A stretch of 63,890 bases of DNA, counting the filler, from Craspedostauros australis (lineage: Eukaryota): the NCBI GenBank assembly GCA_030167865.1. It is 13 parts of 13 records of this genome, joined end to end, with 100 filler letters (N's around TTAATTAATTAA, not from the genome) between each part and the next. Parts side by side here need not be neighbours in the genome. Positions count along the whole stretch, not along the records: positions 44,622 to 51,891 come from JALAGF010003343.1; 12 more parts are not named here. The stretch is one strand, 5' to 3'. This document shows positions 5,964 through 56,070 of the stretch, one piece after another (the stretch's first letter is position 1; each line of letters starts with the position of its first letter). Under the pieces are notes generated by a model. That model was given only the letters and a program-made list of their open reading frames with translations, was not told the origin of the DNA and did no database searches. A program made the position numbers and the translations under genes.

Positions 5964-6649
5964 TGTCGACTCTACTTGCTTGCGCTGGTATTGTCTTGCA
6001 CTCTATGTGGATGCTTCTCAGCCAGATGGAGTGGAGCGGTAATGGAGCGGAGTGGAGTACAGTCTAATATATAATATAATAGCTCGTATAGTATCCGGCA
6101 CAGTACCCGCACCAGGATGACTCGAGAATGGCGGGATGATGGACGTCTTCCAACTCCAACTTCGCAAGTGTCGCTGCGCTCTCTTGCCGTCTCCGTCGTT
6201 GGTCTCTTGCTCTTCCTTGGTCGTTGCCTTGTGTCGATCTTTGAGCGCCAAAGATTGTGTTCTGTGGTGTACGACTATAATAGTAATATAGCACGAGTGT
6301 GGTGTGGTGATAGTTGTGGTCACTGCTGCCGAACCTCTTCTTCTGTTTGTACTTCTGTTTCTGTTGGAGCGTTGCTGTTGCTGCCAATAATGCCATAGTC
6401 CGAGTGACGGAGTATGCTGCACATGAACAATTGCCTCGATCCATCCATCATCGCATGGAGCGAGAACAACTGAGATGGTCGTGCGGTGCACCATCGCTTC
6501 CCGACAGCATCCATCTCCATTCCACGCAATCGTGGCGCGTGCTCACACATGGCGGAGTCCACACAGATCAGAGTACGCGTACAGGTATCTGCAAAGAACG
6601 GACACGGCCGCAGAGAGGAGAAGTGCCGCATCACGAGGACAAGAGACCA

Positions 6650-19364: not shown

Positions 19365-19736
19365 ATTCCAGTGCAGGTTCGGCCTCCGCACCTCCATCCA
19401 AACCGCAAGGGAATTGCCACTCCAACACTCACAAATTCGGGCTCCAAGGCTGTTCCAATCTCACAAGCGGTCATTCCAGAAGAAGCACCGAGAAGGATCG
19501 CAGGCCAATCCACGGCAAGAGTCCTCCACAGCACTTCCACCTGACAAACCCAAGACGAAAGCAAACACGCCCACAGCGAGTGCCAATACCGGTGCCAACG
19601 ACAGTGACAACGACAGAGCAGCCAAGCACCTACGTTGGCGGCCATCGTGACAAACAATCACACGCAACAACAAACAAAAGCACGACCAAAAGCAGCATCC
19701 AGTCCTACCACTACCAGTATCTGCCTTCCCTCCACC

Positions 19737-31157: not shown

Positions 31158-34078
31158 GAGATGAGAGAGGACCTTGCCGGAGGGGCGTCGCTGGAGCAGT
31201 GGAAGAAGCTATTCGAAGATGCGTACGACAACAAACTCCCAGCGGATTCCAACCTCACAGTGGTGCAAGTCATGGTGCGCTTGATGGCGACGTCGAACAT
31301 TTTCTCTTCGTCGATGTGGAAGCTCGGTCAGATCAGAGCAACCCACGAGACAGCGGCATGGATCGCGGTGCGCACGGTGTTCATGGAGGTCAAAGGTATT
31401 CACCTGGACAAAGACGACGACACAGAAGAGACCCAAGCAACGTCTCCAAACCCATCCTCGAAAAAGAAATCCCGCAAGCCCAGACACAAAGTGGTCGCGT
31501 ACCCAAGGAAGCAGCCACAGGCCAGGGAGCTTATCAGCGTGAACGATGCGCTCAGCGACTTCCACAAGACTTTTTTCGACATCCGACTACCTATGTCCAG
31601 AGAAGGCAGTGAAACCCCGCTGGTGCAAGTGATGGCTGGTCTCAACGCGCTACGAGCATTCATCTTCAGAGCGGATTCCAAGGCACAGATCTTGGTGTGG
31701 CGCAAGAGCAAGGAGCTCCGCCCGTGGACTGTGGCGGACGTGGAGTGGACCAACCGCGAATCACTGAAACAATTCGTGGAGAGCCTGTACGCCAGAACCG
31801 GCTTCATGACCTACACCCGTATCTGGGTGGCGCACAAGCAGGACTTGGACGTCTTCGAAGACGACGGGTCGCTTGCCTCTGCTGCGATCTCGTTCAAGAA
31901 ATCACAGATTCAGGAGCACAACATTGTGACAGCCGGGTGGCTTTTCGGTAGCCACAGTTCGATGAACACTGACGACATGGCGGAGGTCATCAACGAGAAC
32001 GAGCTGGTGAAGAATCATTGCGTCGTTCAGCTCCGCATCCGCGAAATCCAACTCGTGAAGCGCTGAGGAAGACGTCCTGACACGGATGACTTCCGCAACA
32101 GGCCCCGAGCCACGCACATCCTGTGCGGGGAGTCGAAGTCCAGAGAGTGCCGCTTGGCGATGAAAGAAATGTTTAACAACAGAGCAGACACCGTTCGCCT
32201 GTTGGGAAAACAGATGAGATTCATGCCGGACGCCCTGGATCAACGCTTCCACCACCCACCCTCGGAACTGGCGAACCTGAGCTCGATGGTTTCTCACCAA
32301 GTCGCGTTCGAGAAGAAGATGGTAATGCAAGGAGTATACTCCATCATGCAGCTGGACGTGGAGGTGCCAATCTGGAATCTCACACTTCGCGAAGTCATCA
32401 TGAATCTGCGATCCTTCGACAACCCTGACTACACCCTCTTCGTATCGGTCGATACGGACAAGATGGACCAAAACAGAACGACATTCGTCTTCCATCCGAA
32501 ACGACAGGTGGAGGCACAGGAGCTGATCTCGAAGTTGCCCTTCTTTTGCAGCAAGAAACTGGACCACAAATGCCAGGGCTGGTTCACACCGGAAGCCTGG
32601 GCCCAGAATGAGTTCTACGAAGTGGACTGGGAAACCGGCTTGGTCAAGAGCAAAGAAGAGCTTGAGATGGGCCAATTGGCTCAGGCGGGAGCTCACTTTC
32701 TGGATCTGGATGAGGAGGAGATGATTGGCCTCACCGCGGCAGACGTCGGATGGGAAGGATACGTCGACGAGCACGGAAACATGAAACCGGTACCGTTGTT
32801 GAAGTTTGAAGTGGAAATGGCCACAAATCCAAGAACACAGAACGGCGACAACGGCACGGTGGCAACCTTCGCGACAGTCACAGTCGCCCAACAGTCGGCG
32901 CACATCGGATCGGCCATCACGAGCACGGCGAGGAACAAATCAGCGAACCCCCATCGCTTTGCAACGGATCCATCGGCAAAGACGGATTTCGACGTGGACA
33001 ACCCAGGCGTAAGCATCCCTGAAGGAGACGAGAGCGACACCGACGAGGCAGGCTCCCCAGCAGGGGAGAGCGCGAAGGAAGGAGACAGCGGAGAGAGCAC
33101 GAGCGAGGACGAGGGCAAAGAGGAGGAAGTCGAAAGCGACGAAGACATCAACATGAGTGACCCAATGGAAACCGAAACTACCACGAACATCGGCGAAACA
33201 GCCGCCCAGCAAGAGTAAAAAAAACACACGTACACACACACACGACGAGACAAGACAGATACAGCCAACAGGGTAACAACACTCAGCAAATTCACAAGGT
33301 GAACCAGACAGGGCGACGCAGTAAGCAACAAGCCAAGGCCTACGCGACAGAGACGACGCGACACAGACGACACGACACAGACAACACGACAAAGACAACG
33401 ACACAGACAACACGATACAGAACAATACAAGATAGCACAAAAAGGCAGAGACAGAGACAGAGACAACAAGAGGCAGAGGCACAACACCAAAAGCAACCAA
33501 GACACCCGGCGGCTACGGAACATTCACAACACGCCGCCACGGTCAATTGCCAACAAGGGAGCACGAAAATAAAATAGGACGCGCGTCCCAACGTGACACC
33601 CACGACTACACAGCCATACCACAGCTTCCACAGAGTAGCGAACGGAGACGATGGCGGACCAAGACAACCCACCGAACGCGAGTAGGCTAAACGATGCTTG
33701 CGGAGATGCGATGGAAAGCAAAACAACAGCGACGATTCGCATTGTGTTCCAGAACGCAGCTCAAATTCCCATTCACGCCTACCAGCAGAAGAATGAAGAG
33801 ATCTTCGAATTCATAAAGACGAGCGATCTCGACATTCTGTGCCTGGCAGAAACGAACCTACGGTGGGATCACGTCCGACCCCAGGACCAATGGTCGGAAC
33901 GAACCCGGCGCCAGCTGCCAAGATCAAAACATGTCTTCGCATACAACACACACGACGACCGACGAGATCCCAGGATGTATGGGGGTGCAGGAGTGGTAGT
34001 GACAGCCCAAATCGCCGCACGCACATTCAAGAGCGGGATTGACGAGAGTGGGATGGGAAGATGGTGCTGGACGCTCAC
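31158..34078 (+). mobile_element. Ambal-like LINE fragment: ORF1 (to 33218, internal TGA at 32064..32066), spacer and ORF2 start
   Basis: ORF1 followed by an APE-type ORF2, the standard LINE layout. Confidence 0.82.
33651..34078 (+). CDS. LINE ORF2 N-terminal apurinic-like endonuclease domain, truncated by a gap
   Basis: IRIVFQN, DILCLAETN, YGGAGV and GIDESGMGRWCW are APE motifs of diatom LINEs. Confidence 0.85.
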
Positions 34079-34178: not shown

Positions 34179-35211
34179 TGGGGCTATTATCATCCATGAC
34201 GCTCGGATCCCGCTTCTCTTGCAACGCCTCTCCTATTCTCTTCGATTCATCGTCTCTCGTGGGCGTAGCTTCTGAACCATCCCTGCACGGCATCAACTCA
34301 TCCTCCGAATCAGAGTTGGCTTCAGTGGAGCTTGTGCTGCTGATCGACACTCCTCCTGATGGATGCTTCTCTTGGTGCACCTGCGATTGCGATTGCGATG
34401 GAGTCTGCTTGTGCTTCGACTTCGGCTTCTGCGTGTGTGGTGGCATGTTGCCGTCAATGAGATAATCCACGATGAGAACCAATTCCACATCGTCGAATGC
34501 AATCCCTGTCAGCTCGTCCACCACGTCCACGAACATCTGGAATTCATCCAAGCCCATTCCAGCATTCTGCCCCTCTTGCTCCAACGCCACCAGCATGCAA
34601 CCATAAGCGACGCGCGACGGAGTTGCCGACGTCCAACCATCCTCTTGCACCATCTCGAACACCAGCTTCCGGCATTGTCTCATCACATCCTTGCGAAGCG
34701 TCGAGCATTCCATGTGCAACAGAATGTGCGACAGCTGCTCGATGAAGCAGTGCGCCGTCGGAGGATGCAGCTTCCATTGCAATGCCTTGAGGATCCGTGT
34801 TTCCATGTCCGCCACATCGTCATCTCGGAATGCCCCGTGGCTCAGCTTCAGCAGCTCCCTCATGGGGAACAGCTTGACTTCGTACAGCTTCATGGCCAGG
34901 TGCAACGACGTCAGAGCGACGAGCTGGTAGTCCGTCGATTCAGAGACCAATCCCTGTCTTACCGATGAATCCGCGAGATACATCCCCACTTCGAGGATGC
35001 ACGGCTTGAGATGGAAGATCTGGACGATGTTGTTCATCCACACCACGATCATCTGACGCCAGTTGGAATCCACCGCGTCTGGCACATACTTGTGAAGCAT
35101 GTTCTGCTGTCTTTTGTAGGTGGACTGCTCCAACGCCATCATCACCTCCACTCGATCCTGCATGGCGGCAAGCTCTTCCGTCAGCACTTGATGCGATGAT
35201 TCCTGCTTCAT
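34179..35211 (-). CDS. Cyclin (diatom-specific cyclin-like), 3' end lost in a gap
   Basis: WRQMIVVWM...YQLVALTSLHLAMKLYE...METRILKALQWKLHPPTAHCFI cyclin box; ATG at 35211. Confidence 0.9.
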
Positions 35212-36653
35212 CGTGGATTTATGTTTCCGTGCGTGTGTGCGGATGTGTGGATGTGTCGCGTGGATGCGTACAATTCGTGCTTGCGTGTGTACGGATTGAT
35301 GATGTGCACTCGAATGGAAAGCCTGAGAGTTCTTCTGTGAGAGTCTAGATGTGATTGACGGTGAGAGAGAAGACGAGCAACGTGCCTCGCGGTGATTCCA
35401 CGTTCGGTATCCTCGAACTCTTTGCGTTGTGCTGCGGTCGACGCGAGCGTGGCAGTGTAGCAGGGATGGGAGAGAGAGAGTTGACAACCTGACAATTTGT
35501 GACGTTGCGATACGCTGCGTTGCGTTGAGTTGTTGCTTTCGTTGCTGTCGTTGTGTCAGAACGCCACGAAAGATAGCTCAGTGCTTCAATAGCAATGGCC
35601 GATCAATGGACTGTTCGCTCGGCTGTCTGCTCACTTGCTTGCTTGGTCGCTTACTTGTTGTCTTGCGCTGGATGGGAAAGCCTCGAATTTGCCACAGAAT
35701 GGAAGATTATGTGAGAGTTGCGGATCGTGGGAGACCACGTTCTTCGTTCTCTGTCGTTATCGTTTCTCCTGCTGTTGGGATTGGGATGAGACGTTGCGAG
35801 CCTTTCCTTCGGCTTCCTTGTGAGTGTGCGTTGATTGTCTCTCGCTTGACTTGCTGCTTACTGATGCTTGATGCAACGCGTGGTGTGATGCTCGGCACTT
35901 TGTGTGTTGTGAATGGAACGTTGATTGCGTCGATGGCTGAATCAATGAGCGAAACGTTACGTCAATCAATCATTTTGCTTGTTCGATGAAAGTAGCGGCG
36001 GAGACACCGCGTTCGGAAATCCACACAGTCGCACCACGGCGTAAAACGCCCTCCAAGCTCCATCAAGCTCTGCCAAGTTCCACCACAAGAGCACCCTCAC
36101 AGACTGCTCCACGGCGCAGAATTCCGCGATGCGACTTGGCGATCACCACACGCAGCGTGGATCTTGCGAGCAATTTTTTGTGGCGCCCAAATTCTGCCAA
36201 CATGGTCCTTCCCCACCAAAATTGTGGCGTGCGATTTTGTGTTTTTGTGTGTTCACCAAATCGTGGATGGATGTTTTGTCGAAGTGGTCGACATTGGGAT
36301 TGTCATTCTCAATCGAGTCGGACGATTCCAATTCGTTCTTCCACAAAGGCTAGTCGTGAAAGATAGAGGGGACAGACTTTTCGGGTTGAGATTGCAGGAA
36401 CAGCATGCCACCAGAACTCCTCTAGCTCGCAGCATGGCAGATGAGCAACTAGTGTACTTCTTCCAGATCGAAGTGAAAATCAGGTGATAAGATGAGTAGA
36501 GGAGCATCATCGTAGTTTGTTTGATGTGGTACTACGCACTTTTGTTATGGTCGTACTGCATTGAGTACACGTATTGTATATCCACTTCCTCACCAGCTCG
36601 TGTCTCCGGTTCAACTACGGGTGTGGCAGGATTGTCTGTCTCTCTCTCGGTCA

Positions 36654-44337: not shown

Positions 44338-44621
44338 AGGAGCGCACCGCTCACAGTATTGCAACGACATTCGATTGCAGTCTCCACGCAGCGGAAAATA
44401 CGAGCAGACGAGCCAATCACACGCGCGCCAGTTCCCATAGCGTACCATACACCATACACCATGCCACATAATACAATACTAGAGTAATACAATAGAGACA
44501 TCACTTCAGAACCACAAACACNNNNNNNNNNNNNNNNNNNNNNNNNNNNNNNNNNNNNNNNNNNNTTAATTAATTAANNNNNNNNNNNNNNNNNNNNNNN
44601 NNNNNNNNNNNNNNNNNNNNN

Positions 44622-45931
44622 ATGTCACAGAACAAGCCTGCTCTGCAGATGGCATCCACTACTGACTGTGTGCGTGTGTGCAAGATTTCCACGACATGTC
44701 ACTGAGCAACAGAGAATGGCTGAAGCACGACAGCATGACTCCCTACCTTTTTCCTCAATCGTCCTATCAATAGCAAGCTTAACACATAAAACAAGCAATC
44801 AGAAACACTCTTCACAGCTTACTTCCAAGTCTACTAGAGTTACATCATCGTCTGACATAGCTTTGTCCTCAACATCAAACGGTGCCAAAGCCGGTTGAAG
44901 GACAGATCATCCTCCTGACAGCGTGCAAAAGACACGGAATACCAACTGTCCGAGTTGAATTTCGTAAGTTCCCGTTGTTCTCGCGAGTTGAAGTTCACTT
45001 AAGAACAGACTACGAGTTCGATTTTCATGTCCTGTTGTGGCACGATCCGGAAGGGAAGGCCTAGCTGACTGCCAGACTCAGTGAAGCTGTTGATGCAGTT
45101 AGCTAGGGATGGCTGTCTGGGAAGATGGTAGTAGGTGACAATGAGTAGATTAGTGCTGATGTGCTGATCTTGAGTTGTGCTATTTGTTACATTGAATAAT
45201 CTGCATTGTGAGTTGATCAGTTTAAGATGTAGGATGAAGAAACGATGTTCAGTTGGATGGTGCGGCTCTGCACTGACCCTCAGAGGTTCAGTGCTGAGAA
45301 CAGACGAAGCTCCTCTCTCTCACTCTCTCCACTATCTGTAGTAGTTGTTCTGCACTCAAGTACAAAGCCTTGACATCTTGATTGAGGTTGCGATTGAGAA
45401 CACAGGAGGGCAGGTGATAGGAATTACAGTTGGATTCCCTGCTTGTGTTGAAGCAGGGCGGATCTCTTCATTGTTGTCGAGTAGTGGTAGTAGGTGTCAT
45501 AGCTGACAAGGGAATTGAGGCAAGTTGCAATTCAAGGATTCAGGGGAGCATACAGTTACCAGAACAGCTTGGATCGAGTCATTTGAGTAGTTTGAGTCAG
45601 TGATGATCAGTGAATGGAAAAAGGAGGAAAAAAGAATGGAGGATTTGCTGTTGCCGTAGCTGGAAGATTTCGCGCCGAAGTGAATTTCGCGTGGCAATCT
45701 GGGACACACTGAAATGGAAAGTAGTCTGTTCTTAAGTGAACTTCAACTGTGCTCGCCCATTTGTTGTTCAATCGTGTGTACTGATGGTAGTACAGACAAC
45801 ACAGTCACCGGTCAACAGTTATATGAGGGGAAATACCGTTTTTCGCAAGTTTTAGTGATGTCATGTTTTTTTAACTGATCAGGTTGTTTCAGTCGTTGAT
45901 TCTGTCACAGATTCTTCCACAATGTGGTTCC
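44622..45931. repeat. 1.3-kb non-coding segment present three times (also 51992..53303 and, reversed, 54558..55589); probably one locus with two haplotypes
   Basis: Identical for about 1030 bp. The third copy ends at the first polymorphism between the other two. Confidence 0.85.
44986..45748. repeat. Segment flanked by perfect 28-bp inverted repeats AGTTGAAGTTCACTTAAGAACAGACTAC (44986..45013 and 45721..45748)
   Basis: Direct read; the same pair occurs at 52356..52383 and 53091..53118. Confidence 0.9.
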
Positions 45932-46074
45932 TGTTGGCATACTGCCCACGGACGATGACAGACGCCGTGGCAATCACAGGACAGCACAGAAGAGATCGTC
46001 CCTTCCGGTCATAAATCACATTAGTAATCATCCACACACACACACACACACACAGTTCCCCTCAGATACTGACA
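45932..46074 (+). repeat. 5' LTR (143 bp, TG...CA)
   Basis: Starts exactly where homology to the empty allele breaks (TGTTGGCATA), ends ATACTGACA and is followed by GGTTATAGCC. Confidence 0.82.
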
Positions 46075-46084
46075 GGTTATAGCC
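46075..46084 (+). promoter_or_regulatory. Putative primer-binding site GGTTATAGCC
   Basis: Immediately 3' of the LTR; resembles the GGTTATGGGCC internal tRNAi-Met PBS of copia-type elements. Confidence 0.6.
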
Positions 46085-46193
46085 TTTCGCGCTCTCCTCT
46101 CCTCGCGCTTTGTGTTCAAGGACGTTCCATTCCCTTACACTCAGTGGTATCTCTTCCCTGCCCCTTCTCCTCTTCCCTTCGCTTCGCTCCAAC

Positions 46194-47900
46194 ATGACCT
46201 CCGACGACGACGTGCTTTCTGATGCTCACACCATCTCGAAGCGGCTCGGTTGGCGTTGGTTCGACTCCATGCTCGAGGCCCTTGGTCTTGCCACTGACGG
46301 CGAGCTGTGCGATCTTCTCGACTCCCCCGATGACCTCTTCCATCAGCGCATGCTTGCGTGGGGCGACGATGATGGGGTTCGCATCCGTGGCATGTGGAAA
46401 CTTCGCGCGTGGTACGTGCTGCATGCCGATTCGGATGGTTGGGCCGGCGAGATCACCCCACGGGTGTTTCGGTCCTTCCTTCGCAAGGAGCGTGTAATTC
46501 CTGAGGCGTTCGCTCCATCCCAGGGCCGCCGCGCCCCTGCGACAAGCACTCCGCCTACTCCTACTGACGACGACCGTGCCAGTGGCGATGACCGTGCCCG
46601 TGACGGCGGTGACGCGCTCCCAGTGGTGCTAGAGGGTGAGATGACACCTGCTACGCCTACTGATGGTGTCGACGCGCTGCCCTCGGATGCTCCTCGCGTG
46701 CCTGAGTCTTCGACGTCTCCTGCCGCTGGTGATGCTCCTGAGTGGTGTGCTGCTGGGGGCGAGGACTTCGACTACATCACGGCATCTGGAGTTCCCTACG
46801 GCCTTGCCAATGCCAGTCCGTCGCTCCGCCGCCATGACACCTACCACATTGGCCCTTCTCTTGATCGCCTTGAGTACGGCGCCCAACAGACTTGGGATAA
46901 GTGGGCGCTGAAGCTTGTGGATGACGATCCGCATCGAGTCTTCCAGTGGTATGCTCAGTTCCAGGCAGCGGCTCTCTGCGTCGATCTCCACGTCTGCCCC
47001 TTGGATCTCTTCCGACCCCATCTGTCGGTCATCCCTGGCAATGTGGTGGGTCGCCGCGTCTTCGAGATGAACTCCAAGCTCGTTGTCAAGCTTCAAGCTG
47101 ATGGCGTCATCAATTCCAGCCATGCCGGCTTGCAGCTCAAGTATGCTGGCAGTTTTGGTGTTCTTCCCCACCAGCTGTCGGCGTACATGTTCCTGCACAA
47201 GATCCTTGCTGGGGCGTTCGACCAGGTGCAATCTCAGGTCCACAAGCATCCCACCTTCGAGGGGTCTGTGTCTGAGTTTGCCACTCGCCTCCTTGGGTTC
47301 CAGCATGTGGAAGGACTCGTTTTTCACCGTACGGTGACCGACATGGAGGTCAGCCGTCTCTTCCTTGAGGAGCTCCGGTCTCATGGGTACTCCCTTGATC
47401 ACTACCGCACGGCCATTCGCTCCGTGACCTCGCCCAAGTCCTTGCCGTTCAATCTCCACATTGAGCAGCTTGCTCAGGAGATTCCGGATCCTCCTGGATC
47501 TGGCGTGCAACCACTTGCTCATCGTGCTCAAACCCGGTCCCAACGGGCTCCGCGCGATGGTGGACGTGGCCAACGCCCTGAGCGCCCACGCCATGCGTTC
47601 TACAAGCCTGATCCGGGTGCATACTGCGAGGCGTGCTGCTCTATGGGCCACCGGGCCGCCACGTGCAAGATGTTTGGGCGCACTGCTCACCTCATCCAGT
47701 ATGTGGCCGACCATCCTGACGATGCCCGGCGCATTCGCGAGAGCTACCGCGAACACTTTGGCCCTGACAAGTTCAAGTCTACTGCTCGTGCCATCCAGCG
47801 CTTCGGCACTGTTGAGGACGCCCGAGTTGAGGATCTTCTGGTGTCCGATGACGTCGTTCATTCGCTCGACCTGGATTTTTGGTCCGCCGGTCAGGAGTAG
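46194..47900 (+). CDS. gag: Copia Gag
   Basis: Long ORF after the PBS with a CX2CX4HX4C knuckle (CEACCSMGHRAATC); ends with TAG at 47898..47900. Confidence 0.88.
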   Translation: MTSDDDVLSDAHTISKRLGWRWFDSMLEALGLATDGELCDLLDSPDDLFHQRMLAWGDDDGVRIRGMWKLRAWYVLHADSDGWAGEITPRVFRSFLRKERVIPEAFAPSQGRRAPATSTPPTPTDDDRASGDDRARDGGDALPVVLEGEMTPATPTDGVDALPSDAPRVPESSTSPAAGDAPEWCAAGGEDFDYITASGVPYGLANASPSLRRHDTYHIGPSLDRLEYGAQQTWDKWALKLVDDDPHRVFQWYAQFQAAALCVDLHVCPLDLFRPHLSVIPGNVVGRRVFEMNSKLVVKLQADGVINSSHAGLQLKYAGSFGVLPHQLSAYMFLHKILAGAFDQVQSQVHKHPTFEGSVSEFATRLLGFQHVEGLVFHRTVTDMEVSRLFLEELRSHGYSLDHYRTAIRSVTSPKSLPFNLHIEQLAQEIPDPPGSGVQPLAHRAQTRSQRAPRDGGRGQRPERPRHAFYKPDPGAYCEACCSMGHRAATCKMFGRTAHLIQYVADHPDDARRIRESYREHFGPDKFKSTARAIQRFGTVEDARVEDLLVSDDVVHSLDLDFWSAGQE

Positions 47901-47922
47901 ATGCATCTCCTGATGAACGGCG
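47873..47922 (+). promoter_or_regulatory. Putative -1 ribosomal frameshift signal: G_GAT_TTT + 5-nt spacer + stem-loop
   Basis: Heptamer 47873..47879 is in the gag frame. CGCCG/CGGCG and TCAGGAG/CTCCTGA stems follow, and pol is in the -1 frame. Confidence 0.78.
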
Positions 47923-50900
47923 TTCTCTCATGCATCGTCGCAGCGGGGCACATGCAGGCCATCACTCTGGTGGGGTGTCCGCGCTTACCATACCTGCTTA
48001 CGCTGGCGTTCCGCCAATCAAGATGGCCAGCGTTGCCATTGCACATGCGTGTCGCGTCCACTCTGCCCGGCATTCGAGTGGTCCTGAGCGTGCGTGGGAT
48101 CCTGGTGGCGGTCCTGGACAGTGCGATGTTGGCGCCAACGTCAGCGCCACGCCTGAGCGGTCCATCATCAGCCGGTACCGGGAGTATGCCCAGCCTGTGC
48201 TGCTCGCCGCTGCCAATGCTGGGTCGCCGTGCATGACATGCCCTGGGGGTGGCGTCATCTACGTCCCCAATGATGATGGTGGGGTCATCCACGTTGAGGC
48301 CATGTACTGCCCTGGGCTGTCCACTACGCTCATTTCGCCTCAGGCGGTCGTCCGACAGACTGACAACGACTTCGAGCGCTTTGTTCTCAGCTGTGGTCTG
48401 CACGATGCCACCATCACCTTTTGTGGACCTGGTGCACCTGTGTCCGCTACCATGCGACAGCACAATGGCCTCTACTTCTTCGATGATGGTGGTGTCCGTG
48501 CTCCCACGGCGTTTGCGCTGCAAGGATCTTCACCTGCACTGCGTGCTGAACTTTGGCATATGCGGCTGGGTCATTCTGGCATGCAGCAGCTTGCTCAGTT
48601 GCCCAAGCACTGCACTGGGTTACCTTCGCGGCTGTCCCAAGGTGCTCATCCCATGCGTCATTGCACTGCTTGCAGTCAGGCGCAGCGGCAAAAGGCAGCG
48701 CATGGGCCCAACGATCCTGATGTGGTGGCCGTCGCTGGTGCCCGTTTCCATGCGGATTTTGGGTTCATGCGGTCTTCTGGTCCCCGATATGGTCGGTCTT
48801 CGTCTCGAGGCAGCGCCAAGCATCATCGTGTGGTCCAGTCGTTGGAGGGATTCACATCCTACCTGTTGGTGACAGATGCATACACTCGGTACACGTGGGT
48901 ATTCCCCACCAAGGATCGGTCGCCGCCTGTGGACATCTTTTCGAAGCTCTTGCGCGACTTTGGGCGGCGCGATGGTCACCGTGCGGTGCGAGTCGACACC
49001 GGTGGAGAACTCGCTCGGTCCAGTGCGTTCCAAGAGATTGTACAGTCTGCTGGGTACAACCTCGAACCCACCGGTGCTGGCTGCTCGTGGATGAACGGCA
49101 AGGTGGAACGTCTCAACCGCACCTTTGGTGTCATGACTCGAGCGCTGCTGTACTCCTCTGGACTTCATCCGCGCTTCTGGGCCAGAGCTCTTGTACATGC
49201 CGTGTATATCAAGAACCGCTTGTGGCACAAATCCATCGACGCTACACCCTACGAGCTCCAACATGGTGTGAAGCCCGACGTCAGTCACTTGCGGGTGTTT
49301 GGATCACGTGTGACGGTTCGCAAACCTGGGTATCCCGCAGCCAAGCTGGATGTGCACACTTATGATGGCATATTTGTGGGGCACACAGCTACTCCATCGC
49401 TTCATGAGTACTACGACCTGGACTCAGGACGGATCAAGACTGCGGGCAACATCGTCTTTGACGAGGCTCACTTCTCTTCCACTGAGCGCCCACCTGGACC
49501 TCAATTGCTCTTCGAGCTTGGCTTCGAGATGGAAGTCGAGTCTGATGGTGTCAAGGTACCGGACAAACATGAACCAGGTCGCACCAGTCTACCTCTTGAG
49601 TGCATCGAGTCCATCACTCGCGACACAGATGATATCCATGCTGCGGCTGCTGCCTGTTCTATTCCGGCATCGCCCAGTTCGGACATTGTTGTCATGGCAG
49701 GTGATCCGTTCGACCTTGCTTTTGCTCAGACCATCGACATCACCGGCGACGATGACACGGCTGGCTTGGAGTTTTCCTACGATGACGCTCGCGGCCGTCT
49801 GCAGCTGGTGCGGTGCCGTCCAGGGTCCAAAGCTGCGCGCATTCCTCGCTGGCGCACTCGCATGCGGAATGCGCATCTGCTGCAGTTCCATGACAGCCCG
49901 GTGCACACCATGGAAGACCTCGCTCTCGCTGTGGCCAATGCTCGTAAGGGTGGCTTGACTCAGTGCGACGCCATCTTCGCCTTTGATGAGGTGCGCAATG
50001 CGCTGTCGCAGCGAGGGGTCCCTCAGCTGTACTTTGATCAGCTCCGGCATATTCGCGGGATTCTTGATGATGTGCAGCCTGCGGCGAATCAGGTGCATGC
50101 AGCTCCCAAGCTGAGCCGCCGAATGCTCCTTCAACGTGATGACTGGGAGGAATGGCAACAGGCTGAGTTCAAGCAGTTGGATCAGTATCATCATCAAGGC
50201 ATGTTTGGGACTCCTGTTGACGCGCCGCGCGATGCTGCCATCTTCAATTGGGTCTGGGTCTACGTGGTCAAAACGCACGAGAACAATCGCAAGAAGGCTC
50301 GAGCAGTTTGCGACGGATCCACCCGCGGCGGCAGCGTCCGAGTGTTTGGCCATACTTATGCGGCGACACCTGATCTCACCGAATTCAGGCTCCTGGTGGC
50401 AATTGCTGCTATTCAAGGGCTCCTTGTCTTTGGTGCGGATGTTGCGAATGCTTTTGCAGAGGCACCCGCCAGTGCTCAGCGGTACTACATGCGTGCGGAT
50501 GCTCCCTTTCGCAGCTGGTGGCAACACAAACATGGGGTTCACCTTGGCCGCAATGCAGTGGTGCCTGTTCTCAAGAACTTGCAGGGCCACCCGGAAGCAC
50601 CTCGACAGTGGAGTCTCCACGTTAATGGGATGCTCAAGGAGATGGGGTTTGCTGCCACCACTCATGCTCCGTGCCTATACACTGGGTCCATTGATGGGCA
50701 CAAGCTCTACGTCCTACGGCAAGTGGACGACTTTGCTGTTGCGACGGCAATGGAACATTCGTTCCAAGTCTTTTGCGACATGCTCGATCAACGGCTGCGT
50801 CAACCTATCACACGTCATGGCATTTTCTCTCACTACAATGGCCTGGACCTTACGCAGGGGCGCCATCACATCACTGTCCATTGCACTACGTATATCAACA

Positions 50901-51823
50901 AAGTGCTGGCACGCCACGATTGGAGTGACCTGAGGTCATCGCAACGCCTTCCCATGCGGTCTGACAGTGGGTATATCCGCAAGCTTGACCAAGGTGTGGG
51001 TCCTGATGACGATGGCGAGCGTGCTGCACTTCAGTCTGAATTTTTCAGCTATCGGCAGGCTATCGGTGAACTCATCTGGGCGATGGTGTCATGCAGACCT
51101 GACATCTCCTTTCCGGTTGTCAAGCTCAGTCAGTTCTCCATCAACCCTGCCAGAATCCACTACGAGGCTGTGAAATATCTCTTTCGGTATGTGGCTGCTA
51201 CTCGCACACATGGCATCACCTACTGGCGTGCACAGCCGGTTCTGCAGCTACCTCAGGTTCCTGATCCGCGACGAATGTCCCCTTCTGCTGACAAGTCGCA
51301 CCAGGTGGCTGACCAAGACACCATACAGGCGTCGTCCTTGTACGGGTACGTTGACGCGGATTGGGGCTCCGACACGCGCCACCGGCGGTCGACCACTGGC
51401 ATCGTATATCTCTTTGGCGGCGCTGCCATTGCTTGGAAGACTCGGATCCAGCCTACCATTGCTCTCAGCAGCTCTGAGGCCGAGTTTGTTGCGGCCAGCG
51501 ATGCTGGCAGGATGGCACTCTGGCTCCGCTCAATCCTCGACGAAATTGGCGTGCCCCAACAGCACGCCACGCTTCTTTACGAGGATAACAGGGGAGCTCG
51601 GATGATGGCGAATGCCAGCCAGCCCACGAAGAACTCAAGGCACATCGACATTCGCACGTTTGCAGTCTGCGACTGGGTGGAGCGTGATCTCATACTCATC
51701 GCGGACGTGGCTTCGGATCTGAATGCGTCGGACGTGTGCACCAAACAGACGTCGATTGTCTTGTTCCATCGACATACCGACCTCATCATGGGTCGGGTTA
51801 GGCCGTTTTATGTCGGAGGTTGA
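47879..51823 (+). CDS. pol: Copia Pol (protease, integrase, PDZ-like insert, RT, RNase H), in the -1 frame relative to gag
   Basis: CDVGAN protease; LWHMRLGH...CTAC; HADFGF...RVDTGGEL...NGKVER integrase; KKARAVCDG...RQVDD RT; YVDADW...EDNRGA...RHIDIR RNase H. No internal stops. Confidence 0.95.
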   Translation: MVRRSGVDASPDERRSLMHRRSGAHAGHHSGGVSALTIPAYAGVPPIKMASVAIAHACRVHSARHSSGPERAWDPGGGPGQCDVGANVSATPERSIISRYREYAQPVLLAAANAGSPCMTCPGGGVIYVPNDDGGVIHVEAMYCPGLSTTLISPQAVVRQTDNDFERFVLSCGLHDATITFCGPGAPVSATMRQHNGLYFFDDGGVRAPTAFALQGSSPALRAELWHMRLGHSGMQQLAQLPKHCTGLPSRLSQGAHPMRHCTACSQAQRQKAAHGPNDPDVVAVAGARFHADFGFMRSSGPRYGRSSSRGSAKHHRVVQSLEGFTSYLLVTDAYTRYTWVFPTKDRSPPVDIFSKLLRDFGRRDGHRAVRVDTGGELARSSAFQEIVQSAGYNLEPTGAGCSWMNGKVERLNRTFGVMTRALLYSSGLHPRFWARALVHAVYIKNRLWHKSIDATPYELQHGVKPDVSHLRVFGSRVTVRKPGYPAAKLDVHTYDGIFVGHTATPSLHEYYDLDSGRIKTAGNIVFDEAHFSSTERPPGPQLLFELGFEMEVESDGVKVPDKHEPGRTSLPLECIESITRDTDDIHAAAAACSIPASPSSDIVVMAGDPFDLAFAQTIDITGDDDTAGLEFSYDDARGRLQLVRCRPGSKAARIPRWRTRMRNAHLLQFHDSPVHTMEDLALAVANARKGGLTQCDAIFAFDEVRNALSQRGVPQLYFDQLRHIRGILDDVQPAANQVHAAPKLSRRMLLQRDDWEEWQQAEFKQLDQYHHQGMFGTPVDAPRDAAIFNWVWVYVVKTHENNRKKARAVCDGSTRGGSVRVFGHTYAATPDLTEFRLLVAIAAIQGLLVFGADVANAFAEAPASAQRYYMRADAPFRSWWQHKHGVHLGRNAVVPVLKNLQGHPEAPRQWSLHVNGMLKEMGFAATTHAPCLYTGSIDGHKLYVLRQVDDFAVATAMEHSFQVFCDMLDQRLRQPITRHGIFSHYNGLDLTQGRHHITVHCTTYINKVLARHDWSDLRSSQRLPMRSDSGYIRKLDQGVGPDDDGERAALQSEFFSYRQAIGELIWAMVSCRPDISFPVVKLSQFSINPARIHYEAVKYLFRYVAATRTHGITYWRAQPVLQLPQVPDPRRMSPSADKSHQVADQDTIQASSLYGYVDADWGSDTRHRRSTTGIVYLFGGAAIAWKTRIQPTIALSSSEAEFVAASDAGRMALWLRSILDEIGVPQQHATLLYEDNRGARMMANASQPTKNSRHIDIRTFAVCDWVERDLILIADVASDLNASDVCTKQTSIVLFHRHTDLIMGRVRPFYVGG

Positions 51824-53841
51824 CGGTTACCCGTCCTCTCTGTTACGACAGAGTCGATTCTTTCCGCTAGCTTACGCTAGCGTGGGGGGGGNNNNNNNNN
51901 NNNNNNNNNNNNNNNNNNNNNNNNNNNNNNNNNNNTTAATTAATTAANNNNNNNNNNNNNNNNNNNNNNNNNNNNNNNNNNNNNNNNNNNNATGTCACAG
52001 AACAAGCCTGCTCTGCAGATGGCATCCACTACTGACTGTGTGCGTGTGTGCAAGATTTCCACGACATGTCACTGAGCAACAGAGAATGGCTGAAGCACGA
52101 CAGCATGACTCCCTACCTTTTTCCTCAATCGTCCTATCAATAGCAAGCTTAACACATAAAACAAGCAATCAGAAACACTCTTCACAGCTTACTTCCAAGT
52201 CTACTAGAGTTACATCATCGTCTGACATAGCTTTGTCCTCAACATCAAACGGTGCCAAAGCCGGTTGAAGGACAGATCATCCTCCTGACAGCGTGCAAAA
52301 GACACGGAATACCAACTGTCCGAGTTGAATTTCGTAAGTTCCCGTTGTTCTCGCGAGTTGAAGTTCACTTAAGAACAGACTACGAGTTCGATTTTCATGT
52401 CCTGTTGTGGCACGATCCGGAAGGGAAGGCCTAGCTGACTGCCAGACTCAGTGAAGCTGTTGATGCAGTTAGCTAGGGATGGCTGTCTGGGAAGATGGTA
52501 GTAGGTGACAATGAGTAGATTAGTGCTGATGTGCTGATCTTGAGTTGTGCTATTTGTTACATTGAATAATCTGCATTGTGAGTTGATCAGTTTAAGATGT
52601 AGGATGAAGAAACGATGTTCAGTTGGATGGTGCGGCTCTGCACTGACCCTCAGAGGTTCAGTGCTGAGAACAGACGAAGCTCCTCTCTCTCACTCTCTCC
52701 ACTATCTGTAGTAGTTGTTCTGCACTCAAGTACAAAGCCTTGACATCTTGATTGAGGTTGCGATTGAGAACACAGGAGGGCAGGTGATAGGAATTACAGT
52801 TGGATTCCCTGCTTGTGTTGAAGCAGGGCGGATCTCTTCATTGTTGTCGAGTAGTGGTAGTAGGTGTCATAGCTGACAAGGGAATTGAGGCAAGTTGCAA
52901 TTCAAGGATTCAGGGGAGCATACAGTTACCAGAACAGCTTGGATCGAGTCATTTGAGTAGTTTGAGTCAGTGATGATCAGTGAATGGAAAAAGGAGGAAA
53001 AAAGAATGGAGGATTTGCTGTTGTTGTAGCTGGAAGATTTCGCGCCGAAGTGAATTTCGCGCGGCAATCTGGGACACACTGAAATGGAAAGTAGTCTGTT
53101 CTTAAGTGAACTTCAACTGTGCCCGTCCATTTGTTGTTCAATCGTATGTGCTGATGGTAGTACAGACAACACAGTCACCGGTCGACGGTCATATGAGGGG
53201 AAATACCATTTTTCGCAAGTTTTAGTGACGTCATGGTATATTCCAACTGATCAGGTTGTTTCAGTCGTTGATTCTGTCACAGATTCTTCCACGATGTGGT
53301 TCCAATCAAAACCTGAGATGTGCGCACATCACAAACACAAACATCGTGTCACCGTCACGTTTGTCATGTCTTGTGAACATCGTGGAGACCACGATGTTTG
53401 GAATCAACGAGCACACAACACGTTATCAAGGCGTGCAACATCGATTTGGGTGTTGCGATTGACAAACTCACAAATCAATCTCATAAATTGAGCCAAGTAG
53501 TCATCGAGCTTGAGGACCCAAGGAACTCGAGAGCAGAAGCAGCAGCAGTAGGTGGCAGCTCATCGCCAGAACCAACCACATTCCACCCCCCATCCCCCAT
53601 CAAACCAGTGAGTTCAATCATCTCACAGGTAGTCTGTCCAAGAGCCATGCTTTAGAATCATTCACATGCGCTGCTGATTGCACGCGGTTCCTCACTTTGC
53701 ACCTTGATCCTCCACCTTCGTTCCCCTTGATACCTCATATTACTATGCACGCACTGATAACACCACCAAACACAACCAAACCTTCCACCACAGCACGCAC
53801 GTCGAGTCCACGCATTTTCCACGACTGTTTCCCCCATCATC

Positions 53842-54457: not shown

Positions 54458-56070
54458 NNNNNNNNNNNNNNNNNNNNNNNNNNNNNNNNNNNNNNNNNNN
54501 NTTAATTAATTAANNNNNNNNNNNNNNNNNNNNNNNNNNNNNNNNNNNNNNNNNNNNCAACAGCAAATCCTCCATTCTTTTTTCCTCCTTTTTCCATTCA
54601 CTGATCATCACTGACTCAAACTACTCAAATGACTCGATCCAAGCTGTTCTGGTAACTGTATGCTCCCCTGAATCCTTGAATTGCAACTTGCCTCAATTCC
54701 CTTGTCAGCTATGACACCTACTACCACTACTCGACAACAATGAAGAGATCCGCCCTGCTTCAACACAAGCAGGGAATCCAACTGTAATTCCTATCACCTG
54801 CCCTCCTGTGTTCTCAATCGCAACCTCAATCAAGATGTCAAGGCTTTGTACTTGAGTGCAGAACAACTACTACAGATAGTGGAGAGAGTGAGAGAGAGGA
54901 GCTTCGTCTGTTCTCAGCACTGAACCTCTGAGGGTCAGTGCAGAGCCGCACCATCCAACTGAACATCGTTTCTTCATCCTACATCTTAAACTGATCAACT
55001 CACAATGCAGATTATTCAATGTAACAAATAGCACAACTCAAGATCAGCACATCAGCACTAATCTACTCATTGTCACCTACTACCATCTTCCCAGACAGCC
55101 ATCCCTAGCTAACTGCATCAACAGCTTCACTGAGTCTGGCAGTCAGCTAGGCCTTCCCTTCCGGATCGTGCCACAACAGGACATGAAAATCGAACTCGTA
55201 GTCTGTTCTTAAGTGAACTTCAACTCGCGAGAACAACGGGAACTTACGAAATTCAACTCGGACAGTTGGTATTCCGTGTCTTTTGCACGCTGTCAGGAGG
55301 ATGATCTGTCCTTCAACCGGCTTTGGCACCGTTTGATGTTGAGGACAAAGCTATGTCAGACGATGATGTAACTCTAGTAGACTTGGAAGTAAGCTGTGAA
55401 GAGTGTTTCTGATTGCTTGTTTTATGTGTTAAGCTTGCTATTGATAGGACGATTGAGGAAAAAGGTAGGGAGTCATGCTGTCGTGCTTCAGCCATTCTCT
55501 GTTGCTCAGTGACATGTCGTGGAAATCTTGCACACACGCACACAGTCAGTAGTGGATGCCATCTGCAGAGCAGGCTTGTTCTGTGACATGGATATGCTTC
55601 AAGACACGCGCAGGTTCTGCAAGATGGCAGATTTGGCAGGTGGCAGGAGTGCATGAGCTGGAGGATGAGCTGAGCGTGGATTGTGGTTCAACTACACACC
55701 ATGCATGTGGTAGCCTTTCATCCCGGTATCGGGTTGGGATACCAAATACCATGTACGCGACAACAACAATTGAGTCCGGTAACGTTTTGGGATCAAGTAT
55801 GTCCCAACTCGGATCATCTTGTATTCCACGATTCGCTCGACCGATACATCACCATTAAGTCGTGCATGAGTTGAATCCCGAACCACATCAAGAAATCCAA
55901 CAACAAACGAGAACGCTGCGTTTGGCGCCACCACCAAAGCACAAATGCATCTCACTCAGCTCAGCCTCTCACACTCTGCAGACCGCGTCCATCTCTGAAA
56001 GGTGATCAGGACCACAAAAGGAACAACTCCAACCACGACTCCAACAACTCCAACCACGGCGAAGAACACA

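What the first reader, a model, noticed from the sequence alone, without database searches (positions are those of the whole stretch)
47871..47922. Copia element with a retrovirus-style -1 frameshift cassette (G_GAU_UUU + hairpin)
Seen: gag reads CTG GAT TTT TGG ... GAG TAG(47900) and pol is open in the -1 frame. The heptamer GGATTTT (47873-79) is followed after 5 nt by a two-part stem, CGCCG(47885-89)/CGGCG(47918-22) and TCAGGAG(47891-97)/CTCCTGA(47907-13), with the gag stop in the loop. Established: G_GAU_UUU is a functional -1 slippery site in dianthoviruses; -1 shifting is typical of retroviruses and Gypsy elements and unusual for Ty1/Copia. Inference: Pol is produced by -1 frameshifting. 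Split gag/pol frames may already be reported for some diatom Copia groups, so novelty needs a literature check. With the element at 58-59.7 kb, this gives two candidate recoding strategies in one genome.
Basis: partly seen in the sequence, partly recalled or inferred. Interest (0 to 1): 0.75.

Follow-up and report, generated by a model that had tools for sequence, protein, structure and literature searches.

The report
Conserved -1 frameshift signal in algal Copia retrotransposons
A Copia-type jumping gene, probably from a diatom, appears to make its enzymes by letting the ribosome slip back one base at GGAUUUU in front of an RNA hairpin, and the same signal is kept in every related element that has this gene layout.

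Summary
On a 7.27-kb contig (44622-51891), gag ends at TAG 47898-47900. Pol (PR-IN-RT-RH) is open in the -1 frame from 47852. G_GAT_TTT lies at 47873-79 in the gag frame. Five nt later comes a two-part hairpin at 47885-47922 (-20.7 kcal/mol; 1 of 200 shuffles as stable).

It is not an indel or assembly error. All 31 gag relatives found among 1.84 billion proteins are stand-alone proteins of 160-685 aa, and 17 end in Asp-Phe plus 0-7 residues. Of 79 related metagenome loci plus the window element, 25 could be typed. Eleven have pol in -1, and 11 of 11 carry in-frame GGATTTT, a 4-6-nt spacer and a bulged GC-based hairpin. A covariance model found four further sites.

The stem covaries: 11 of 13 pairs change on both sides. 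Synonymous positions are fixed in 14 of 14 sites.

Sister clades instead have one in-frame TGA (10 of 10). No typed relative is fused.

The best reading is programmed -1 ribosomal frameshifting. The layout resembles the umbravirus cassette, tested in PEMV (GGAUUUU, 5-nt spacer).

I found no published description for diatom Copia elements, but two key sources could not be read. There is no experimental proof.

The parts
44622..45931 (+). 5' long terminal repeat. It begins at the contig start, so the true 5' end is at or near 44622/44623 (TGTCAC...).
   Evidence: Self-BLAST: 44622-45931 matches 51992-53303 at 98.6% over 1312 nt. Its first 1032 nt are 100% identical to 51992-53023 and to the reverse complement of 54558-55589. 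The copies diverge after ...GTGGTTCC. The other copies lie on other contigs.
46191..47900 (+). gag ORF, from the first Met (codon 37 of the stop-to-stop frame 46083-47900) to TAG
   Evidence: No Pfam family. There are 31 homologues, all stand-alone proteins of 160-685 aa. Conserved core and CCHC knuckle in alignment A1.
47625..47666 (+). CX2CX4HX4C zinc knuckle of Gag (C515, C518, H523, C528 of P0001)
   Evidence: These four residues are invariant in the 16-sequence alignment A1. Coordinates are computed from the frame start at 46083.
47873..47879 (+). slippery heptamer G_GAT_TTT (zero-frame codons GAT 47874-76 and TTT 47877-79)
   Evidence: Invariant and in frame at 11 of 11 typed -1 junctions and at 3 more full sites. 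Synonymous positions are fixed in 14 of 14.
47880..47884 (+). 5-nt spacer (TGGTC)
   Evidence: Relatives have 4-6 nt before the first stem pair.
47885..47922 (+). Two-part stimulatory hairpin: a 5-bp G:C outer stem (47885-89 / 47918-22), an 8-bp inner stem (47890-97 / 47907-14, closed by G-U), a 9-nt loop and a 3-nt bulge on the 3' side (47915-17).
   Evidence: MFE -20.7 kcal/mol, z -2.55. 8 of 1032 control windows are as stable. The same architecture occurs in all relatives, with covariation.
47898..47900 (+). gag stop codon TAG, the first three bases of the hairpin loop
47852..51823 (+). pol reading frame (-1 relative to gag), 1323 codons stop to stop. After the shift, decoding would continue at TTG 47879-81.
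   Evidence: Pfam hits in order: gag_pre-integrs 229-277, rve 335-403, SH3_retrovirus 471-541, RVT_2 789-1026. 189 pol homologues, 44-52% identical for the best 14.
51884..51891 (+). G8 run at the contig end, 61 nt after the pol stop: a polypurine-tract-like sequence just before where the 3' LTR should begin
   Evidence: tail of the contig. Its function is inferred from position only.

Best explanation
This is an intact-looking Ty1/Copia-type LTR retrotransposon of a eukaryotic alga, most likely a diatom. Its Gag-Pol polyprotein is made by programmed -1 ribosomal frameshifting.

Proposed mechanism:
1. Most ribosomes translating gag terminate at UAG (47898-47900) and yield Gag.
2. A fraction pause with tRNA-Asp on GAU in the P site and tRNA-Phe on UUU in the A site, because the bulged hairpin 5 nt downstream resists unwinding.
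3. Both tRNAs slip back one base. Phe re-pairs perfectly with UUU; Asp re-pairs partly with GGA.
4. Decoding continues at UUG (47879-81) in the pol frame, giving a predicted Gag-Pol of about 1877 residues (563 from gag plus 1314 from pol).

What is shown: the frames, the heptamer, the hairpin, and their conservation and covariation across relatives. What is inferred: that slippage occurs, its efficiency, the tRNA details, and the size of the product.
For: 1. Anatomy: pol is open only in the -1 frame, the overlap is 49 nt, and the heptamer is in the correct phase.
2. Hairpin: -20.7 kcal/mol, z -2.55; top 0.8% of windows along the element.
3. Family level, proteins: HMMER against 1.84 billion representatives gave 31 gag homologues, all 160-685 aa, none fused to pol. 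17 of 31 end in Asp-Phe plus 0-7 residues. Most of the other 14 appear to be fragments whose match stops before the gag C-terminus, judged from the match ranges rather than checked one by one.
4. Family level, DNA: of the 25 sequences that could be typed (24 loci plus the window element), 11 have pol in -1. All 11 carry GGATTTT in the gag frame inside overlaps as short as 16 nt (L038).
5. Model search: a covariance model built on those 11 found L058, L075, L067 and the 5'-cut L076, and exactly one site in the 63.9-kb window. L075 and L067 have the expected frames.
6. RNA-level selection: at 14 of 14 sites Asp is GAT, Phe is TTT, and the preceding codon ends in G. That preceding codon is CTG, CCG, TCG, GAG, CAG, GTG or CGG. 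In the same elements GAT is 46-73% of Asp codons, TTT is 29-51% of Phe codons, and 11-28% of codons end in G.
7. Structure: 74.2% of cells are paired against 58.4% in shuffles (0 of 500 reach it). 11 of 13 pairs change on both sides. Slid controls give 29-46% paired. RNAalifold on the unfitted MAFFT alignment finds the outer stem, with 4 of 5 pairs compensatory.
8. Depth: the two -1 clades are far apart on the RT-RNase H tree.
9. Precedent: GGAUUUU with a 5-nt spacer is an experimentally dissected -1 site in PEMV (PMC4737148; PMC5009743).
Against: - There is no direct evidence of the frameshift product. No sequencing run could be listed, and no genome is held for the window.
- GGAUUUU departs from the strict X_XXY_YYZ rule, because the P-site tRNA re-pairs imperfectly.
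- Single hairpins are only modestly unusual. Shuffle z ranges from -0.56 to -3.27, and L059 and L077 rank only in the top 14% and 13% of windows.
- The covariation alignment A6 was fitted to the model's structure. The sequences are related, and several are near-copies (L031/L040/L058/L076; L030/L034), so the 14 sites are fewer than 14 independent lineages.
- In a 128-nt context the overall fold is not exceptional.
- The 3' LTR of this copy lies on another contig, so the integrity and age of this particular copy are unknown.
Confidence: 0.85

Rival explanations
1. The split is an artefact or a dead copy. A 1-nt deletion or a sequencing/assembly error in the T run broke an originally fused gag-pol ORF.
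For: The site contains a T5 run in a draft assembly of short contigs. Single-ORF gag-pol is the usual Copia layout (from recall of Gao et al. 2003, which I could not read).
Against: The same -1 arrangement with the same heptamer occurs in 13 other elements from independent metagenome contigs. Gag proteins at 20-38% identity stop within 0-7 codons of the same Asp-Phe. Both ORFs are free of internal stops.
Confidence: 0.02
2. Pol is expressed independently of Gag by internal initiation, reinitiation after the gag stop, or a spliced or subgenomic mRNA. On this reading the conserved Asp-Phe is a protein feature of the Gag C-terminus, such as a protease site.
For: Gene callers gave Met-initiated pol-only proteins of 1196-1432 aa, one from a transcriptome (P0034). 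The pol frame has an ATG at 47930. Some retroelements express Pol separately (foamy viruses are named in abstracts listed).
Against: A protein motif does not explain the fixed synonymous bases or the G before GAT across seven different preceding codons. It also does not explain a covarying hairpin at a fixed 4-6-nt distance. The N-terminal pol-frame sequence and any Met are not conserved among relatives. The pol frame opens only 1-8 codons before the heptamer in several relatives.
Confidence: 0.06
3. The frame change is made at the RNA level, by polymerase stuttering on the T run (transcriptional slippage), not by the ribosome.
For: The site is a homopolymer run. Transcriptional slippage is a known alternative in other systems (the title of PMC5009743).
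Against: The conserved run is only four T in 13 of 14 sites; the next base is A, G or C. By recall, that is short for slippage. Slippage needs no downstream hairpin at a fixed spacing and no conserved GGA before the run.
Confidence: 0.03

Closest known systems
Umbravirus -1 PRF cassette, tested in Pea enation mosaic virus RNA2 (PMC4737148; passages read). I recall that the dianthovirus RCNMV uses the same heptamer.
   Same: - The heptamer is identical (GGAUUUU), with only the A-site tRNA re-pairing perfectly.
- Both have a 5-nt spacer.
- In both, the hairpin's lower stem is 4-5 G:C pairs and the hairpin is bulged.
- In 8 of the 14 algal sites the gag stop lies one codon after the heptamer. In seven of these it is TAG, and its G opens the lower stem (for example GGATTTT CAG TAG GGC in L059). 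This matches the paper's description of G_GAU_UUU_UGG_UAG in PEMV.
   Different: - The viral stimulators are 88-95 nt long with two large bulge loops. They need long-distance pairing of a bulge with the genome's 3' end.
- The hairpin here is 38 nt, and its 3' bulge is only 2-4 nt.
- In the window's copy the stop sits six codons after the site, in the apical loop, not at the stem base.
- The host and the replicon are unrelated: an LTR retrotransposon against plus-strand RNA viruses.
Retroviral and Ty3/Gypsy gag-pol -1 frameshifting
   Same: Same logic and gene layout. Pol overlaps the end of gag in the -1 frame, with a heptamer, a spacer and a downstream structure setting the Gag:Gag-Pol ratio. 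A 2003 survey found 28 of 51 animal retroelements with pol in -1, many with classical shift sites (summarised in PMC5009743).
   Different: - The element has the Copia domain order (integrase before reverse transcriptase).
- The heptamer is not of the classical X_XXY_YYZ type.
- The stimulator is a bulged hairpin. No pseudoknot was looked for.
Other Ty1/Copia recoding: Ty1 +1 frameshifting, Drosophila 1731 gag-pol frameshifting, and diatom CoDi elements
   Same: It belongs to the Copia superfamily. Frameshifting between gag and pol is on record for 1731 (PMC5009743; reference titles seen). Maumus et al. [quoted passage not shown]
   Different: - Ty1 shifts +1 by a different mechanism (recalled).
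- For CoDi, no shift site or RNA structure is given in the main text I read, and the supplement is not held.
- Membership of a numbered CoDi group was not tested.
Sister elements with an in-frame stop between gag and pol
   Same: They share homologous pol (33-38% identity in the best tblastn segment) and weakly homologous gag. They come from the same kinds of marine metagenomes and lie between the two -1 clades on the tree.
   Different: Gag and pol are in the same frame, separated by one stop. That stop is TGA in 10 of 10. They have no GGATTTT cassette and no hit with model R1. The presumed mechanism is stop-codon readthrough.

Membership tests
Ty1/Copia (Pseudoviridae) LTR retrotransposon | Pol domain order protease - integrase - reverse transcriptase - RNase H | tested here: met
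   Pfam on P0002: gag_pre-integrs 229-277, rve 335-403, SH3_retrovirus 471-541, RVT_2 (the Copia-type RT) 789-1026. The rve and gag_pre-integrs hits fall below Pfam's own cut-offs. The integrase and RT blocks are strongly conserved in alignment A3.
Ty1/Copia (Pseudoviridae) LTR retrotransposon | Flanking direct long terminal repeats, with a primer-binding site and a polypurine tract | tested here: inconclusive
   One 1.31-kb LTR lies at the 5' end of the contig, and a G8 run lies at its 3' end. The matching LTR copies are on other contigs. No primer-binding site was identified.
Ty1/Copia (Pseudoviridae) LTR retrotransposon | Gag with a CCHC zinc knuckle | tested here: met
   C515, C518, H523 and C528 are invariant in A1. 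Pfam itself reported no family for gag.
Diatom CoDi Copia lineages (Maumus et al. 2009) | Phylogenetic placement of RT/RNase H with reference CoDi elements | not tested
   No reference CoDi sequence was available to the tools. The only support is that the named pol homologues come from Cyclotella and Thalassiosira, at 32-42% identity.
Canonical -1 programmed ribosomal frameshift cassette | Heptamer X_XXY_YYZ in the zero frame | tested here: not met
   G_GAU_UUU has GGA in place of XXX. It is nevertheless the variant shown to work in PEMV. The strict consensus fails, but the working class is matched.
Canonical -1 programmed ribosomal frameshift cassette | A short spacer (about 5-9 nt by recall) followed by a stable structure | tested here: met
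   The spacer is 5 nt and the hairpin is -20.7 kcal/mol. This is conserved and covarying in relatives.
Canonical -1 programmed ribosomal frameshift cassette | Downstream ORF in -1, overlapping the end of the upstream ORF, with the site inside the overlap | tested here: met
   Overlap 47852-47900, site 47873-79. Same in 11 of 11 typed relatives.
Canonical -1 programmed ribosomal frameshift cassette | A trans-frame protein is actually produced | not testable with these tools
   No RNA or protein data. No sequencing run was listed.
Umbravirus/dianthovirus-type PRF signal | GGAUUUU with a 5-nt spacer | tested here: met
Umbravirus/dianthovirus-type PRF signal | Zero-frame stop directly after, or 3 nt after, the heptamer, at the base of the stem | tested here: not met
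   In the window the stop is six codons downstream, in the loop. The feature is met in 8 of 14 relatives' sites.
Umbravirus/dianthovirus-type PRF signal | Large (88-95 nt) doubly bulged stimulator whose bulge pairs with a distant 3' sequence | tested here: not met
   The size criterion fails: the hairpin is 38 nt with a 3-nt bulge. Long-range pairing was not searched for.

The most novel reading that the evidence does not exclude
A deep lineage of algal Copia retrotransposons has kept, across two distant clades, a frameshift cassette built like that of umbraviruses: GGAUUUU, a 5-nt spacer, often UAG opening a G:C lower stem, and a bulged hairpin. Its sister clades have switched to, or from, in-frame UGA readthrough. 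On this reading the cassette is either an ancient shared solution or a repeatedly reached optimum for eukaryotic ribosomes. It also gives the first natural, phylogenetically validated -1 PRF signal for diatoms, and evidence that retroelements toggle between two recoding modes.
Probability: 0.3. Interest if true: 0.7.

Novelty: new member of a known kind. Interest (0 to 1): 0.55.

Why it matters
Copia elements are the main transposons of diatom genomes: CoDi elements make up several per cent of the Phaeodactylum genome (PMC8147415). How they set the Gag:Pol ratio has not been described in anything I could search.

A conserved, covarying, 55-nt cassette gives three things:
- a rule for annotating these elements correctly, as two ORFs joined at Asp-Phe rather than as pseudogenes or separate genes;
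- a natural -1 frameshift signal to test in diatom expression systems;
- a case for studying why a non-canonical heptamer recurs in unrelated replicons, and how lineages exchange frameshifting for UGA readthrough.

The mechanism itself is textbook, so the advance is one of scope, not of principle.

Tried and rejected
- **Whole genome of the window:** none is held.
- **Public sequencing runs** for 47300-48500: none was listed, and no RNA holder was listed. The T-run length could therefore not be checked in reads, and read laying was not used.
- **Earlier findings of this scan:** nothing.
- **Word-indexed protein search with gag:** no hit, although HMMER over the representatives later found 31. 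The index is simply too coarse for this protein, so I ran no further search on 'longer'.
- **The search for related loci with the 16-row gag alignment:** With the 5-row alignment A2 it found 24 pattern matches, none confirmed. The pol alignment worked.
- **The listing of cluster members:** The sources of the gag homologues are therefore unknown.
- **Rfam on the whole window:** 0 matches.
- **ESM Atlas with the gag core:** only unnamed or zf-CCHC clusters, uninformative.
- **The repeat finder at first suggested a 300-nt repeat at 44522:** this was the N linker.
- **RNAalifold on the unfitted alignment:** it recovers only the outer stem, because the inner stems sit in different registers.
- **Literature:** Gao et al. 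2003 (RNA 9:1422) is not held, and the Maumus 2009 supplement is not held.
- **Literature searches:**
  - copia + frameshift + gag + pol + slippery + retrotransposon: 2 papers, both on RetroTector.
  - copia + ribosomal frameshifting + LTR retrotransposon + diatom: 0 papers.
  - GGAUUUU + retrotransposon: 10 papers, none on such elements.
  - GGATTTT + frameshift + gag: 237 papers, and none of the 15 listed was relevant.
- **Not done:** I looked for neither a pseudoknot nor long-range pairing, and I identified no primer-binding site.
Full report
**What is in the window**

The 63.9-kb window is not one stretch of chromosome. It is 13 contigs joined by 100-nt linkers of the form N44-TTAATTAATTAA-N44. 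The finding lies on a 7270-nt contig, 44622-51891.

That contig has the following layout:
- It starts with a 1.31-kb repeat (44622-45931). Copies of this repeat begin two other contigs: 51992-53303 at 98.6%, and the reverse complement of 54558-55589, which is 100% identical over 1032 nt.
- It then carries two long frames.
- It ends in a G8 run, 61 nt after the second frame.

This is the layout of one LTR retrotransposon whose repeats the assembler collapsed. No whole genome is held for the window, and no sequencing run could be listed.

**Checking the observation**

- Gag is open from 46083 (first Met at 46191) and reads ...CTG GAT TTT TGG TCC GCC GGT CAG GAG TAG, with the stop at 47898-47900.
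- Pol is open from 47852 to 51823 (1323 codons) in the frame one base back.
- Pfam finds, in this order, gag_pre-integrs, rve, SH3_retrovirus and RVT_2. That is the Copia order.
- Gag has no Pfam family, but it has an invariant CX2CX4HX4C knuckle.
- GGATTTT (47873-79) is phased as G_GAT_TTT.
- After 5 nt, ViennaRNA predicts exactly the proposed two-part hairpin: a 5-bp G:C outer stem, a 3-nt 3' bulge, an 8-bp inner stem and a 9-nt loop that begins with the stop codon.
- The energy is -20.7 kcal/mol, z = -2.55, and 1 of 200 shuffles folds as well.
- Only 8 of 1032 equally long windows along the element fold as well.
- In a 128-nt context the hairpin persists, but the total energy is ordinary (z = -0.66).

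**Is it an error in one copy?**

I searched gag with HMMER against one representative of each of 1.84 billion protein clusters. That search has no length limit.
- It returned 31 homologues of 160-685 aa. None is long enough to be a Gag-Pol fusion.
- In the best hits the match runs to their last residues.
- Aligned at 19-37% identity, 14 of the 15 homologues end in Asp-Phe followed by at most a few residues: DFCNAGQE, DFLFAGHLD, DFINAGQM, DFP, DF, DFR, DFYKAGQ and so on.
- Over all 31, 17 have Asp-Phe within the last 12 residues. Most of the rest appear to be fragments that stop before the gag C-terminus, judged from their match ranges rather than checked one by one.

So the gag stop sits at the same place across the family.

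**DNA of relatives**

A gag-based scan of metagenome contigs found nothing. A scan with an alignment of pol and its 14 best homologues gave 79 loci. I translated all forward frames and scored them with gag and pol profiles, then typed the junction wherever the pol N-terminus and at least 200 nt upstream were present.

| Category | Number (of 80: 79 loci plus the window element) |
|---|---|
| Typed | 25 |
| Pol N-terminus not detected by the profile | 53 |
| Pol frame open to the 5' end of the locus | 2 |

| Junction type among the 25 typed | Number |
|---|---|
| Pol in -1 (window, L001, L029, L030, L031, L034, L038, L040, L042, L059, L077) | 11 |
| Gag and pol in one frame, separated by a single stop | 10 |
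| Broken copies (L006, L058) | 2 |
| No upstream frame (L020, L024) | 2 |
| One fused frame | 0 |

**The signal is conserved**

- All 11 -1 junctions contain GGATTTT in the gag phase. In L038 the whole overlap is only 16 nt and consists of little more than the heptamer.
- Each heptamer is followed, after 4-6 nt, by a hairpin of the same design. The design is a 4-5-bp G:C outer stem, a 2-4-nt bulge on the 3' side, and an inner stem whose sequence differs from element to element.
- Taken singly the hairpins are modest. Shuffle z runs from -0.56 to -3.27, and they rank between the top 0.5% and the top 14% of windows. But they sit at the same place in every case.
- A covariance model built from the 11 sites was run over all 79 loci and the window, 490 kb on both strands. 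It found the 11 seed sites and four sites it had never seen: L058, L075, L067, and L076, which is cut at its 5' end. Two weak hits (E about 1) were also returned. There was exactly one hit in the window and none in the in-frame-stop loci.
- L075 and L067 have the expected frames, with the gag stop one codon after the heptamer. L058 is a decayed copy.

**Selection acts on the RNA, not only on the protein**

- At 14 of 14 full sites Asp is GAT and Phe is TTT.
- At all 14 the preceding codon ends in G, although that codon is CTG, CCG, TCG, GAG, CAG, GTG or CGG.
- In the same elements GAT makes up 46-73% of Asp codons, TTT makes up 29-51% of Phe codons, and only 11-28% of codons end in G.
- On the model-guided alignment A6 (15 rows), 74.2% of cells form pairs, against 58.4% when partners are shuffled (0 of 500 shuffles reach it).
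- 11 of 13 pairs show changes on both sides. Sliding the partners by 1-3 columns drops pairing to 29-46%.
- That alignment is fitted to the structure and the rows are related, so I also ran RNAalifold on the plain MAFFT alignment. It recovers the outer stem, with compensatory changes at 4 of 5 pairs (GC/CG, AU/UA). It misses the inner stems, which lie in different registers.
- Several rows are near-copies (L031/L040/L058/L076; L030/L034), so the number of independent lineages is nearer eight or nine than 14.

**Depth of conservation**

On a tree of the RT-RNase H region for 16 typed elements, the -1 elements form two well-supported groups:
- window + L001 + L038 (SH-aLRT 100);
- L059, L077, L042, L034 and L031 (SH-aLRT 100).

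The in-frame-stop groups attach between them. The tree is unrooted, so the order of events is open. The nine typed elements left out had no single pol frame spanning that region. In the in-frame group the stop is TGA in 10 of 10.

**Mechanism**

The best-supported explanation is programmed -1 ribosomal frameshifting, as set out under Best explanation.
- Shown: the frames, the phase of the heptamer, the hairpin, and their conservation and covariation.
- Inferred: that ribosomes slip there, how often, and the predicted 1877-residue Gag-Pol.

The rivals fare poorly:
- A broken copy is excluded by the family data.
- Independent Pol expression does not explain the fixed synonymous bases or a covarying hairpin at a fixed spacing, and the pol-frame N-terminus and any Met are not conserved.
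- Transcriptional slippage is unlikely on a run of four T in 13 of 14 sites, and it does not need the hairpin.

**Comparison with what is known**

- GGAUUUU is a shift site dissected by mutagenesis in the umbravirus PEMV. Changing the uridines abolishes frameshifting, and only the A-site tRNA re-pairs perfectly.
- In that virus, the paper describes a 5-nt spacer, a zero-frame UAG 3 nt after the site whose G opens a lower stem of 4-5 G:C pairs, and a bulged stimulator. It also reports that replacing the stop with a sense codon lowers frameshifting by 72% in vitro (PMC4737148, passages read; PMC5009743).
- Eight of the 14 algal sites have the stop one codon after the heptamer. In seven of them it is TAG opening the stem (...GGATTTT NNN TAG GGC...).
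- The window's own copy keeps the heptamer, the spacer and the G:C base, but it places the stop in the loop.
- The viral stimulators are much larger (88-95 nt) and depend on long-range pairing. I did not test for that, and a 3-nt bulge makes it unlikely here.
- An abstract also calls G_GAU_UUU a typical -1 motif in a Fusarium virus. That it is the dianthovirus site is recalled, not seen in a call.
- Within Copia, frameshifting is on record for Drosophila 1731. Ty1's +1 shift is recalled.

**Host**

Named pol homologues come from Cyclotella and Thalassiosira, and the best hit is a transcript from a marine-protist transcriptome project. Other contigs of the window encode a cyclin, an AAA/TPR protein and a DUF6824 protein. 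A diatom or close relative is likely but not shown.

**Novelty**

Maumus et al. [quoted passage not shown] Split frames were therefore noticed, but I saw no shift site or structure there.

The literature searches are itemised under Tried and rejected. In brief:
- Two combined-term searches returned 2 irrelevant papers and no paper.
- Two motif-based searches returned nothing on such elements among what I saw.
- Passages from five further Copia papers mention only decay frameshifts, or gave nothing on gag-pol recoding.

Two sources that could hold the information were not readable: Gao et al. 2003 and the Maumus supplement.

I therefore rate this as a new, well-supported member of a known kind of signal, in a superfamily and a host group where it has not been characterised.

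Noticed in passing
window 23924-59835 (12 linkers, e.g. 44522-44621): The window is 13 contigs joined by N44-TTAATTAATTAA-N44 linkers. Gene neighbourhood across linkers is artificial, and several contigs begin or end at repeat boundaries.
   Followed up: yes
L004, L005, L009, L010, L011, L015, L016, L025, L026, L028 (gag-pol junctions): Related Copia elements have gag and pol in the same frame, separated by a single stop that is TGA in 10 of 10. This suggests programmed UGA readthrough as the alternative strategy in sister clades. No common downstream structure was obvious from single folds.
   Followed up: partly
window 47898-47906; L030, L034 and L077 hairpin loops: The hairpin loops of the window element and of three clade-B elements share TA(A/G)ATGC, which contains the gag stop. 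The loops of the window element and L077 contain the palindrome ATGCAT, and the L038 loop contains GTGCAC. It is unexplained whether this is a loop-loop or dimerisation contact or just shared ancestry.
   Followed up: no
window 51992-53303 and 54558-55589 (minus strand): Two more copies of the element's LTR start other contigs, each with different flanking sequence. They are either solo LTRs or the ends of further copies. The family is therefore present more than once in the source assembly.
   Followed up: partly
window 26395-28114, 28540-31057, 31158-33689: Another repeat family. A 1720-nt segment is 100% identical in three contigs (one inverted), and 2.5 kb are shared at 98% between two contigs. 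It carries ORFs of 318-391 aa; the two I scanned had no Pfam hit.
   Followed up: no
proteins P0057, P0069, P0077 and others: Many more distant pol homologues (1328-1686 aa) carry a dUTPase domain (PF00692) ahead of the integrase region. That is unusual for Copia elements.
   Followed up: no
It has no Pfam family and does not match this family's gag or pol profiles.
   Followed up: partly
protein P0031: One gag homologue ends in ...EANFL, with Asn-Phe where the others have Asp-Phe. This may be a variant shift site of the A_AAU_UUU type.
   Followed up: no
window 3396-6002 (-), 19608-23915 (+), 34182-35577 (-): Host-like genes on other contigs: a DUF6824 protein, an AAA_16/TPR protein and a cyclin. 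They show that the source is a eukaryote.
   Followed up: partly
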